A stretch of DNA of 64,000 bases from the human T2T-CHM13v2.0 reference genome, Homo sapiens (GCF_009914755.1 NC_060937.1); one strand, 5' to 3'; numbered from the stretch's first letter, positions 14,401 to 16,813 are shown. Program-made: numbers and translations. Notes: generated by a model not told the origin, from the letters alone.

Positions 14401-14485
14401 AACAAACATGTTTTTATTTAGTAATCATGATTGTTAATTGGTGGAATAAGACACAACTGGTCTCAAAATTCAGTCACATAATGCA

Positions 14486-14791
14486 TTATTATTATTATTA
14501 TTATTATTTGAGACAGAGTATCACTTTGTCACCCAGGCTGGAGTGCAGTGGTGCAATCTCGGCTCACTGCAACCTCCACCTCCTGGGTTCAAGCGATTCC
14601 CCTGCCTCAGCCTCCCAAGTAGCTGGGACCACAGGCATGTGCCACCATGCCCGGATAATTTCTGTATTTTTAGTAGAGATGGCATTTCACCATGTTAGCC
14701 AGACTGGTCTCGAACTCCTGACCTCAAATGATCTGCCCACCTTGGCATCCCAAAGTGCTGGGATTACAGGCGTGAGCCACCGTGCCCAGCC
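14486..14791 (-). mobile_element. Alu (left boundary of the inversion)
   Basis: Reverse-complement Alu with head GGCTGGGCACGG at 14791 and a (TAA)n tail. Confidence 0.95.
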
Positions 14792-15290
14792 TGTGCAAAC
14801 TCTTCACAGTTTACTTGACCGTCACCATCAATATCTGCTTCCCTGATCATTTCGTCAACCTCTTCATCTGTTAACTTCTCTCCAAGGTTTGTCATCGCAT
14901 GGTGAAGTTCTGCTGCACTAATATAACCATTGCCATCCTTATCAAACACACGGAATGCTTCTCTCATTTCTTCTTCACTGCCTGCGTCTTTCATTTTTCT
15001 TGCCCTCATTGTCACAAATTCAGGGAAGCCAACTCTGCCATTACTATCAGCATCTACTTCATAAATCATGTCCTGTAACTCTGCTTCTGTGGGATGCCGC
15101 CTAAGAGACCTCATTTCTGTTCCCAGTTCCTTTGTTGTTATAGTTCCATCACCGTCTTTGTCAAATAGTAAATAAGCTTATTTGAATTCTACAATCTGCT
15201 CTCCAGTCAGTTGGTCAGCCATGCTGAAAGCGCTACCGGTTTCCGAGACGCGACTGCACGACCACTCGGCTCGCTCGCTCCACTCGGACT
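14792..15290 (-). pseudogene. CALM2P4: Calmodulin 2 processed pseudogene, 5' UTR and most of the CDS (inverted segment)
   Basis: Minus strand reads the CALM2-type 5' UTR AGTCCGAGTGGAG...GGAAACCGGTAGCGC, ATG at 15222 (MADQLTGEQIVEFK*, TAA at codon 15, 15180-15178), then intronless calmodulin sequence through ...[15 protein letters not shown]. The pseudogene number is from recall of the locus. Confidence 0.93.
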
Positions 15291-15449
15291 CCCTTCTACT
15301 TTAAAGATCAGATAATTTCAATGCTCTTAATTCCAGACCATAGAAAAAAAGAAAACTATAGATCAATTTCACTTATGAATATCAATGCAAAACTCTTAAA
15401 TATAACTGTAGCAAGCAGAATCCAACAGCGCATTAAAAAATAATACATT

Positions 15450-15753
15450 GGCCAGGCGCAGTGGCTCATACCTGTAATCCCAGCACTTTGGGAGGCTGAG
15501 GCGGGCGGATCACCTGAGGTCAGGAGCTCGAGACCAGCCTGGCCAAAATGGCGAAACCCCATTTCTATTAAAAATACAAAAATTAGCCAGGCATGGTGGC
15601 AGGTGCCTGTAGTCCCAGCTACTTGGGAGACTGAGGCACGAGAATCGCTTGAACCTGGGAGGCGGAGGTTGCAGTGAGCCGAGATCGTGCCACTGCACTC
15701 CAGCCTGGGCGACAGAGAGAGATTCCATCTCAAAAAAAAAAAAAAAAAAAAAA
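15450..15753 (+). mobile_element. Alu (right boundary of the inversion)
   Basis: Full Alu with head GGCCAGGCGCAG at 15450 and a poly-A tail to about 15753. Confidence 0.95.
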
Positions 15754-16813
15754 GTTTGTACAGATGATGATAGCAAAGACCTTGCTCGAAATGTGTTAAA
15801 TTTCTTTTACAAAATTATTTATTTGCCTTTTCTTTGTTTGTAACTTATCTGTAAAAGGTTTCTCCCTACTGTCAAAAAAAAAAAAAAATGCATACATAGT
15901 AATTAGGACTTAATTCCTTCATGTTTTCTTCCCCTGTCTCACTGTCATTGTCCTGAAACTTTATTTTAGAAAATTGAGGCCGGGCGTGGTGGCTCACGCC
16001 TATAATTCCAGCACTTTAGGAAGCCGAGGCAGGCGTTTTAACTGAGGTCAGGAGTTCGAGACCAGCCTGGTCAACATGGTGAAACCCTGTCTCTACTAAA
16101 AATACAAAAATTAGCCGGGCGTGGTGGGACACGCCTGTAATCCCAGCTACTCGGGAGGCTGAGGCAGGAGAATCACTTGAACCCAGGAGGTGGAGGTTAC
16201 AGTGTTGAGATAGCGCCATTGCACTCCAGCCTGGGCAATAGATTGAGACTCCGTCTCAAAAACAAACAAACACCACTATATATATATATATATGTATACT
16301 TAAAAGTAGCACTATTGCAAAATGGGCATATTATTCAGGTACTCTCATACTTTTTTTGAAATGGAGTCTCGTTCTGTTGCCTAGGCTGGAGTGCAGTGGC
16401 ATGATCTCAGCTCACTGCAATCTCCGCCTCCTGGGTTCAAGCAATTCTCCTGCTTCAGCCTCCCGACTAGCTGGGACTACAGGTTTGAGCCACCACACTT
16501 GGCTAATTTTTATATTTTCAGTAGAGACGGGGTTTCACCATACTGGCCAGGCTGGTCTTGAACTCCTGACCTCCTGATCTGCCCGCCTTGGCCTCCCAAA
16601 GTGCTGGGATTACAGGCATGAGCCACCACCCCACTGGGCCTATACTCTTTTTTTGTACTACTGGTTCTGTACCAGAAACATTTTAATTGTTACTTGCTTT
16701 TTAAACTTTGTTTAGCCACTTAAAGAAAATCCACTTATGATACAATTTGCCTCAAATTCATTCCAAGTTGTATATTTGTTTTCTAATACAAAGTTACAAT
16801 AAAATCATAATAA
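15751..16813 (+). pseudogene. CALM2P4: Calmodulin 2 processed pseudogene, last codons and 3' UTR (plus strand), interrupted by Alus at about 15978-16270 (+) and 16350-16640 (-)
   Basis: AAGTTTGTACAGATGATGATAGCAAAG (FVQMMIAK, compare calmodulin FVQMMTAK) followed by CALM2 3' UTR-like text (TTTGCCTTTTCTTTGTTTGTAACTTATCTGTAAAAGGTTTCTCCCTACTGTC; GTTACTTGCTTTTTAAACTTTGTTTAGCCACTT; TTCCAAGTTGTATATTTGTTTTC) and a degraded A-rich tail. Confidence 0.9.

What the first reader, a model, noticed from the sequence alone, without database searches (positions are those of the whole stretch)
14480..15763. Alu-Alu recombination inversion splits the CALM2 retrocopy onto opposite strands; TSDs are swapped
Seen: the 5' part of the calmodulin retrocopy is on minus (15290 to 14792), while its last codons and 3' UTR are on plus (15751 onward). 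The 658-bp segment 14792-15449 lies between two head-to-head Alus, and each Alu head is preceded by the TSD that belongs to the other Alu's tail. AAGAGTTTGCACA precedes the left Alu head (minus 14804-14792) but recurs as AAAGTTTGTACA after the right Alu tail (15751-15762). AATAATACATT precedes the right Alu head (15439-15449) but recurs as AATAATGCATT after the left Alu tail (minus 14490-14480). The retrocopy's own TSD is also inverted: TAAAGTAGAAGG on minus 15303-15292 versus TAAAGTAGATGG on plus 16814-16825. Inference: non-allelic recombination between inverted Alus flipped the segment after both had inserted, so both Alus should be chimeric. The event may be lineage-specific or polymorphic.
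Basis: partly seen in the sequence, partly recalled or inferred. Interest (0 to 1): 0.8.

Follow-up and report, generated by a model that had tools for sequence, protein, structure and literature searches.

The report
Alu-Alu inversion splitting a CALM2 pseudogene
A dead, intronless copy of the calmodulin-2 gene on human chromosome 13 was cut in two when a 658-base stretch between two oppositely oriented Alu repeats flipped over; this is a clean example of a known kind of rearrangement with no sign of functional consequence.

Summary

- **Retrocopy halves.** The minus strand 15290→14792 carries CALM2 exons 1-5 plus the first 10 nt of exon 6. The plus strand from 15753 carries exon 6 from its first base. 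The 10-13 nt overlap is an Alu target-site duplication.
- **Alus.** Two full-length AluS-like elements, 14491-14791 (minus) and 15450-15753 (plus), face head to head across 658 nt.
- **Duplications.** All three target-site duplication pairs match only after the segment is flipped.
- **In-silico flip.** Flipping gives one uninterrupted alignment to CALM2 and to colinear CALM2 retrocopies on chr10 and chr17.
- **Age of the halves.** They are equally diverged from CALM2 (0.074±0.012 and 0.091±0.014).
The retrocopy sits in an old minus-strand L1 ORF2. The 158 bp of L1 inside the segment now reads on the plus strand.

This is a retrotransposon recombination-mediated inversion, a mechanism described in Lee et al. 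2008. The crossover point and the chimeric nature of the Alus could not be shown. The age and any polymorphism cannot be tested with these tools. The locus is not among 49 published human-chimpanzee events. It is ordinary and intergenic, so interest is low.

The parts
14480..14490 (-). Target-site duplication copy next to the tail of the left Alu (minus-strand reading AATAATGCATT). Its partner is at 15439-15449.
   Evidence: 10 of 11 match to the reverse complement of 15439-15449
14491..14791 (-). Left Alu, full length, AluS-like, with a (TAA)n tail at 14491-14509 and its head at 14791. It is inferred to be chimeric: the 3' part from the Alu that inserted into the L1, the 5' part from the Alu that inserted into the retrocopy.
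   Evidence: I1 inverted arms; 29 of 279 differences from the majority of 54 Alu copies; Rfam Metazoan SRP match on the minus strand, 14508-14655; no internal deletion
14792..15290 (-). 5' part of the CALM2 processed pseudogene (CALM2P4): 5' UTR, exons 1-5 and the first 10 nt of exon 6, with no introns. The start codon is at 15222-15220. There is one premature stop at codon 15 and no frameshift in 143 codons. The last 13 nt (14792-14804) are a target-site duplication copy for the right-hand Alu.
   Evidence: five colinear exon matches, 91.3-94.2%; translation; best gene matches on C2, weaker on C14
15292..15303 (-). 5' target-site duplication of the retrocopy, now inverted (minus-strand reading TAAAGTAGAAGG). 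Its partner is at 16814-16825 on the plus strand.
15292..15449 (+). Fragment of an old L1 ORF2 (reverse-transcriptase region, ORF2p residues about 515-557), carried along by the inversion. It reads on the plus strand although the rest of this L1 is on the minus strand. The last 11 nt (15439-15449, AATAATACATT) are the second duplication copy of the left-hand Alu insertion.
   Evidence: (PDB L1 ORF2p chains, E 6e-8 to 2e-7)
15450..15753 (+). Right Alu, full length, AluS-like, with a poly(A) tail to about 15753. It is inferred to be chimeric in the reciprocal way.
   Evidence: I1; 23 of 285 differences from the panel majority
15751..15762 (+). Target-site duplication copy after the right Alu tail (AAAGTTTGTACA). 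This is CALM2 exon 6 nt 1-10 preceded by A residues. Its partner is at 14792-14804 on the minus strand.
15753..16813 (+). 3' part of the CALM2 retrocopy: the last codons and the 3' UTR (exon 6). It is interrupted by an Alu at 15978 to about 16275 (plus) and an Alu at about 16346-16640 (minus). About 193 nt of the 3' UTR are missing at the first of these. The A-rich end is short and degenerate.
   Evidence: (exon 6 matches at 15753-15977, 16290-16357 and 16641-16800)
16814..16825 (+). 3' target-site duplication of the retrocopy (TAAAGTAGATGG)
16826..17800 (-). Upstream part of the same old L1 ORF2, on the minus strand, interrupted by an AluY-like element at 16864-17163 that has its own 14-nt duplication. 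It serves as the uninverted reference orientation.
   Evidence: (window 17800-17178 minus aligns to L1 sense positions about 690-1117 in 9 of 10 reference copies); (D17 duplication)

Best explanation
Order of events, inferred from nesting:
1. An old L1 lay on the minus strand.
2. A CALM2 mRNA was reverse-transcribed and inserted on the plus strand into the L1 ORF2. This made the 12-nt duplication TAAAGTAGA[A/T]GG.
3. One AluS-like element inserted in plus orientation into the end of the retrocopy's coding region (duplication AAGAGTTTG[C/T]ACA). Another inserted in minus orientation into the L1 about 135 nt upstream of the retrocopy (duplication AATAAT[G/A]CATT).
4. A homology-guided, in-register exchange between the two inverted Alus flipped everything between the crossover points. 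That is the Alu heads, the 5' 499 nt of the retrocopy, its 5' duplication and 158 nt of L1.

Shown here: the present arrangement; the restored colinearity of three independent markers after flipping; the equal age of the two halves; and that both Alus are full length with no loss or gain.

Inferred: that the exchange was homologous recombination rather than a replication template switch; the chimeric make-up of the Alus; and the date. The event left a pseudogene fragment annotated as CALM2P4 and has no evident function.
For: - Colinear exon matches lie on opposite strands and overlap by exactly the first 10 nt of exon 6.
- After the in-silico flip there is a single alignment across the junction to the C10 and C17 retrocopies and to joined exon 5 plus exon 6. 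The unflipped control gives two alignments on opposite strands.
- The three duplication pairs match only in the swapped or inverted configuration, at scores reached by fewer than 1% of random pairs each.
- p-distance to CALM2 is 0.074±0.012 (500 nt, 5' half) and 0.091±0.014 (441 nt, 3' half). The colinear retrocopies show 0.046/0.047 (C10) and 0.082/0.079 (C17) for the same two regions.
- The L1 ORF2 piece 15291-15440 on the plus strand matches ORF2p residues 515-557 (E about 1e-7).
- The L1 piece 17800-17178 on the minus strand aligns to L1 sense positions about 690-1117 in 9 of 10 reference L1 copies. The inner piece aligns at about 1501-1610 in the same sense only when flipped. In reference L031 one alignment crosses the retrocopy insertion site.
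- Both Alus are full length, with 1 inserted base each and no internal deletion against a 54-copy panel. They align to each other without gaps over 303 nt, so the exchange was in register.
- The mechanism and its duplication-swap signature are as described by Lee et al. 2008 (PMC2603318; abstract, sections 6 and 19 read).
Against: - Chimerism of the Alus is not demonstrated. Differences from the panel majority are spread evenly along both elements. The non-CpG counts per quarter are L 2, 6, 3, 2 and R 0, 5, 3, 1. Only three common-variant columns that are non-CpG or a transversion (94, 102, 152) differ between them, so no crossover can be placed.
- The left flank (14062-14479, minus) could not be shown to continue the L1 beyond 3 nt. 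The left junction therefore rests on the 10-of-11 duplication alone.
- No orthologous or alternative-haplotype sequence with the uninverted arrangement was available, so the ancestral state is reconstructed, not observed.
Confidence: 0.92

Rival explanations
1. The same inversion between the two inverted Alus, produced by a replication-based template switch (MMBIR or serial slippage) or by repair of a break in an Alu hairpin, rather than by a classical reciprocal crossover.
For: - Balachandran et al. 2022 (PMC9675761, passages read) report that small Alu-mediated inversions in humans involve Alus of median 81.7% similarity, and they discuss MMBIR-like signatures. The pair here is 83% alike and only 658 nt apart.
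- The longest runs of identity between the two Alus today are about 22-23 nt (derived from the column list).
Against: - In that paper, four of seven Alu-mediated inversions carried extra deletions or insertions at the breakpoints.
- Here both Alus are complete and in register, with nothing lost or gained. This fits a simple homologous exchange at least as well.
- The sequence cannot separate the two routes.
Confidence: 0.25
2. Twin priming at the time the CALM2 mRNA was retrotransposed produced a 5'-inverted retrocopy. The Alus arrived later and are bystanders.
For: Twin priming is known to give L1 and processed-pseudogene insertions with an inverted 5' part (recalled, Ostertag and Kazazian 2001; not read here). 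The gross picture of a 5' part on the opposite strand fits.
Against: - The inverted block also contains 158 nt of non-CALM2 L1 sequence and the retrocopy's own 5' duplication in inverted orientation, next to the mRNA 5' end. Twin priming would leave both duplications direct and outside the insert.
- The break in CALM2 coincides exactly with an Alu duplication.
- The Alu duplications are swapped.
Confidence: 0.01
3. Two independent partial CALM2 retrocopies (one 3'-truncated on minus, one 5'-truncated on plus) landed side by side.
For: Several CALM2-derived copies exist in the genome (colinear copies on C10, C13 and C17, and more distant calmodulin-like matches).
Against: - The halves abut at the same nucleotide of exon 6, with only a duplication-length overlap.
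- They share one duplication pair.
- Their divergences are statistically the same.
- A 3'-truncated retrocopy lacking a poly(A) end is not what target-primed reverse transcription makes (established knowledge).
Confidence: 0.01
4. Assembly artefact: the 658-bp segment was mis-oriented between two inverted 300-bp repeats.
For: Inverted repeats can in principle confuse assemblers.
Against: - The repeats are only about 300 nt long and 83% alike. That is far shorter than the long reads behind a telomere-to-telomere assembly (established knowledge, not tested).
- The RefSeq pseudogene CALM2P4 spans exactly the inverted 499 nt on the minus strand (hub annotation). This suggests the same arrangement in the reference on which it was curated (inference).
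Confidence: 0.02

Closest known systems
Retrotransposon recombination-mediated inversion, Alu type (Alu-RMI; Lee, Han, Meyer, Kim, Batzer 2008, PLoS One, PMC2603318)
   Same: - Two Alus in opposite orientation span the two breakpoints.
- The duplications of each element no longer match each other but match reciprocally.
- No sequence is gained or lost.
- The size (658 nt between the Alus) is within the published range; the average chimpanzee-specific Alu-RMI is 769 bp (Table 1).
   Different: - This locus is not in the paper's Table S1 (0 of 49 loci on chr13), so it is probably not a human-chimpanzee difference and may be older.
- Here the ancestral state is reconstructed from internal markers (a split retrocopy and a split L1), not from an orthologous allele.
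Polymorphic transposable-element-mediated inversions in human genomes (Balachandran et al. 2022, Nat Commun, PMC9675761)
   Same: - An inverted Alu pair lies at the breakpoints.
- The Alu-Alu similarity (83%) is close to their median (81.7%).
- The event is small.
   Different: - No evidence that this one is polymorphic.
- The coordinate prefixes I searched were absent from their supplements. My conversion of coordinates to hg38 and hg19 is from memory, so that miss is weak.
- There are no breakpoint complexities here.
Twin-priming 5' inversions of L1 and processed pseudogenes
   Same: The 5' part of a retrocopy lies on the opposite strand from its 3' part.
   Different: - The inverted block includes flanking host sequence and an inverted duplication.
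- The breakpoints lie in later Alu insertions.
- The defining features of twin priming are therefore not met.

Membership tests
Alu recombination-mediated inversion (RRMI, Lee et al. 2008) | Two elements of the same retrotransposon family, in opposite orientation, span the two inversion breakpoints | tested here: met
   (303-nt inverted arms at 14489-14791 and 15450-15752, 83%)
Alu recombination-mediated inversion (RRMI, Lee et al. 2008) | The duplications of each breakpoint element do not match each other but match those of the other element after flipping | tested here: met
   cognate pairs score 4 and 6 (the 6 is poly-A). Swapped pairs score 8 (10 of 11) and 7 (11 of 13). Random pairs reach 7 or more in 0.86% of 20,000.
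Alu recombination-mediated inversion (RRMI, Lee et al. 2008) | Sequence between the elements is inverted relative to both flanks | tested here: met
   Relative to the right flank: CALM2 colinearity is restored by flipping, and L1 ORF2 orientation is restored by flipping. Relative to the left flank, only the duplication shows it. L1 continuity there is not shown.
Alu recombination-mediated inversion (RRMI, Lee et al. 2008) | Both breakpoint elements are chimeric (front of one, back of the other) | tested here: inconclusive
   both are AluS-like and of similar divergence (29 of 279 and 23 of 285 from the panel majority). There is no reciprocal switch in mutation density and there are too few informative columns.
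Alu recombination-mediated inversion (RRMI, Lee et al. 2008) | An orthologous or allelic uninverted state exists | not testable with these tools
   No primate genomes or human haplotypes other than this assembly are held.
Processed pseudogene (L1-mediated retrocopy) of CALM2 | Intronless copy of the spliced mRNA, with the parent gene elsewhere | tested here: met
   exons 1-6 are contiguous, and the gene on C2 has introns between them; matches on C2 (91-94%) are better than on C14 (78-86%); the 3' UTR matches only the C2 gene and its retrocopies.
Processed pseudogene (L1-mediated retrocopy) of CALM2 | Flanking target-site duplication and a 3' A-rich end | tested here: met
   A 12-nt duplication, 11 of 12, seen only after flipping. 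The A-rich end at 16801-16813 is short and degenerate.
Twin-priming 5' inversion | The inverted 5' part abuts the 3' part directly, and both duplications are direct and outside the whole insert | tested here: not met
   The 5' duplication is inverted and internal. 158 nt of L1 flank and an Alu lie between the halves.

The most novel reading that the evidence does not exclude
The inversion happened on the human lineage after the split from chimpanzee, or still segregates (or toggles recurrently) in human populations, and was missed by the published human-chimpanzee and three-genome surveys. It would then be a small new lineage-specific or polymorphic structural marker near SLC15A1.
Probability: 0.07. 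Interest if true: 0.35.

Novelty: new member of a known kind. Interest (0 to 1): 0.22.

Why it matters
The locus is a tidy, self-documenting example of inversion by exchange between inverted Alus. Three nested markers allow the ancestral state to be rebuilt from one genome alone: a spliced gene copy, an L1 reading frame and three duplication pairs.

It also explains why the annotated pseudogene CALM2P4 covers only 499 nt on the minus strand. The rest of the same retrocopy (15753-16813, plus strand) is unannotated.

It does not change any gene. It lies about 43 kb from SLC15A1 in intergenic repeat-rich DNA, and it adds no new mechanism.

Tried and rejected
1. **Continuity of the L1 across the left junction (14479 leftwards, minus strand).**
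   - blastn and tblastx against 11 and then 3 longer reference L1 loci gave no match for 14062-14479 in the expected place.
   - Local alignment of the 100 nt next to the junction was no better than shuffles in most references. The best cases were 3 and 6 of 200 shuffles reaching the score, at inconsistent L1 positions.
   - With relaxed scoring the restored alignment runs only 3 nt past the junction.
   - A genome search showed that window 14062 to about 14230 is a common repeat, but the 110 nt next to the junction match nothing. The result is inconclusive.
2. **Placing the crossover.** A majority sequence of 54 Alu copies from the window and fetched loci gave no reciprocal switch in divergence and too few informative columns.
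3. **A long open frame from a reference L1 used as a tblastn query.** It gave no hits because it lay outside the relevant region.
5. **Literature on the locus.**
   - 'CALM2P4' occurs in 1 paper, an expression study (search listing only).
   - A five-term search on processed pseudogene, Alu, inversion, target site duplications and inverted listed 12 of 20 papers. By title and abstract none concerns this locus.
6. **Rivals rejected.** Twin priming, two independent insertions and an assembly artefact were considered and rejected, as set out under the rivals.

Full report
**What is there**

Reading 14000-17200 and a repeat scan show two full-length Alus facing head to head.
- The left Alu is on the minus strand at 14491-14791. 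Its head is at 14791 and it has a (TAA)n tail.
- The right Alu is on the plus strand at 15450-15753 with a poly(A) tail.
- They form 303-nt ungapped inverted arms, 83% complementary, with 658 nt between them.
- Rfam recognises the SRP-derived part of the left Alu on the minus strand.

**The CALM2 retrocopy**

The window's own genome could be searched.
- The minus-strand piece 14792-15290 finds the intron-containing gene on contig C2 exon by exon. It also finds colinear intronless copies on C10, C13 and C17.
- The plus-strand pieces 15754-15977 and 16641-16830 find the last exon of the same C2 gene and the same retrocopies.

Against the C2 gene (loci L019-L021), blastn gave the following.
- Minus 15290→14792 matches exons 1, 2, 3, 4 and 5 in order, at 91.7, 93.8, 91.3, 92.6 and 94.2% identity. 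It ends with the first 10 nt of exon 6.
- Plus 15753 onward matches exon 6 from its first base (87.4% including gaps). It matches again at 16290-16357 and 16641-16800.
- The two halves therefore overlap by exactly AGTTTG[C/T]ACA, preceded by AAG on one side and AAA on the other. This is the expected footprint of an Alu insertion into an intact retrocopy.

The coding part reads as calmodulin with one premature stop at codon 15 and no frameshift in 143 codons. The gene name CALM2 comes from the hub's annotation. What I tested is that the C2 gene is the best-matching parent: C2 exons match at 91-94%, against 78-86% for C14.

**Flipping test**

- Reverse-complementing 14792-15310 and joining it to 15763-15977 skips the right Alu and one duplication copy.
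- This gives a single alignment over query 21-734 to the C10 retrocopy, and one over 44-734 to the C17 retrocopy.
- It also gives one over 372-734 to exon 5 joined to exon 6, with no gap at the junction.
- The unflipped control always breaks into two alignments on opposite strands.

**Same age of the halves**

| Copy | p-distance, exons 1-5 | p-distance, exon 6 |
|---|---|---|
| This locus | 0.074±0.012 (500 nt) | 0.091±0.014 (441 nt) |
| C10 retrocopy | 0.046 | 0.047 |
| C17 retrocopy | 0.082 | 0.079 |

**Target-site duplications**

Scoring was +1 per match and -2 per mismatch.
- The swapped pairs score 8 (10 of 11) and 7 (11 of 13).
- The inverted retrocopy pair scores 9 (11 of 12 by eye).
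- The pairs expected in an uninverted locus score 4, 6 (poly-A only) and 5.
- Six further control comparisons score 3-4.
- In 20,000 random pairs of 16-mers from the window, a score of at least 7 occurs in 0.86%, at least 8 in 0.29% and at least 9 in 0.125%.
- The second swapped pair is not independent of the CALM2 overlap. The other two are.

- The 158 nt between the retrocopy's 5' end and the right Alu (15292-15449) are L1 ORF2 on the plus strand. The translation of 15291-15440 matches solved human ORF2p chains at residues 515-557 (E 6e-8 to 2e-7).
- To the right of the retrocopy, L1 ORF2 continues on the minus strand. Window 17700-17599 matches ORF2p residues about 276-305. This is weak in the PDB search (E 0.06-0.2), but 5 of the 6 listed chains are L1 ORF2p. 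tblastx against L1 copies gives E 6e-8.
- With relaxed blastn, 17800-17178 (minus) aligns to L1 sense positions about 690-1117 in 9 of the 10 reference L1 loci used. One of the 11 fetched was dropped because its Alus clutter the output. L023 gave only the inner-piece match.
- The inner piece aligns at about 1501-1610 in the same sense only when taken from the plus strand.
- In reference L031 one alignment (query 648-822) runs straight across the retrocopy's insertion site.
- A stricter blastn against locus L046 places the pieces in order: 773-830, 1340-1367 and 1498-1593.

So the retrocopy's duplication is itself L1 sequence. The L1 piece inside the segment is inverted relative to the L1 outside it.

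**What could not be shown**

1. *The left flank.* The 418 nt left of the left Alu could not be aligned to L1 downstream of the inner piece. Only 3 nt beyond the duplication continue the match. A genome search shows that 14062 to about 14230 is a common repeat, and that the 110 nt nearest the junction match nothing. The left junction rests on the 10-of-11 duplication.
2. *Chimerism and the crossover.*
   - Against the majority of 54 near-full-length Alus (59 hits, 5 identical duplicates removed), the left Alu differs at 29 of 279 columns and the right at 23 of 285.
   - The differences are spread evenly. Neither element has an internal deletion, and each has one inserted base.
   - That argues for an in-register, homology-guided exchange.
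   - No reciprocal switch is visible. Only columns 94, 102 and 152 are informative differences.
   - Both look like AluS and lack the variants carried by the AluY-like copy at 16864-17163. The subfamily labels are recalled, not computed.
3. *Age and polymorphism.* No other primate genome or human haplotype is held.

**Comparison with what is known**

- The mechanism, its duplication-swap signature and the expectation of chimeric elements are described by Lee et al. 2008 (PMC2603318; abstract, sections 6 and 19, both supplements read). They report 28 Alu-type events among 49 between human and chimpanzee.
- None of the 49 is on chr13. This mildly suggests that the inversion predates the human-chimpanzee split, or that it was missed.
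- Balachandran et al. 2022 (PMC9675761; passages and a supplement search) found 7 Alu-mediated polymorphic inversions in three genomes, with median Alu similarity of 81.7%.
- The coordinate prefixes I searched are absent from their supplements. One scanned PDF could not be searched, and my conversion of coordinates is from memory, so that miss is weak.
- 'CALM2P4' occurs in one paper, an expression list (listing only).

**Verdict**

This is a new, well-documented instance of a known kind of rearrangement, with no evident functional effect. It also means the annotation of CALM2P4 covers only the flipped 5' 499 nt of a retrocopy that continues on the other strand to 16813.

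Noticed in passing
window 15978-16290: The plus-strand Alu inside the retrocopy's 3' UTR has no flanking direct repeat of 8 nt or more. It sits exactly where about 193 nt of the CALM2 3' UTR are missing; those bases are present in the C10 and C17 retrocopies. 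This could be an Alu insertion-associated deletion or a later deletion. A (TA)n run follows its tail at about 16278-16296.
   Followed up: partly
window 16346-16652: The minus-strand Alu in the 3' UTR has an ordinary duplication of about 12 nt made of CALM2 3' UTR sequence. The gene positions matched on both sides overlap by 12 nt.
   Followed up: partly
window 16852-17177: An AluY-like element (minus, 16864-17163) lies in the L1 just right of the retrocopy, with a 14-nt duplication GGCTTGGCGTACTT / GGCTTGGCATATTT (D17). It is younger-looking than the two Alus at the inversion. The subfamily label is recalled.
   Followed up: no
window 15763-15790: The end of the calmodulin reading frame on the plus strand has a 5-nt deletion that removes the stop-codon region relative to CALM2 (alignment).
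   Followed up: no
window 15753-16813: The RefSeq pseudogene CALM2P4 is annotated only for 14792-15290 (minus). The 3' part of the same retrocopy on the plus strand carries no annotation row in the hub's table.
   Followed up: yes
L013 / L003 (G000:C13:40389730-40390358): A second CALM2 retrocopy on the same chromosome has uneven divergence across regions: exon 5 p about 0.09, but the first 144 nt of exon 6 about 0.02. It appears truncated after about 144 nt of exon 6.
   Followed up: no
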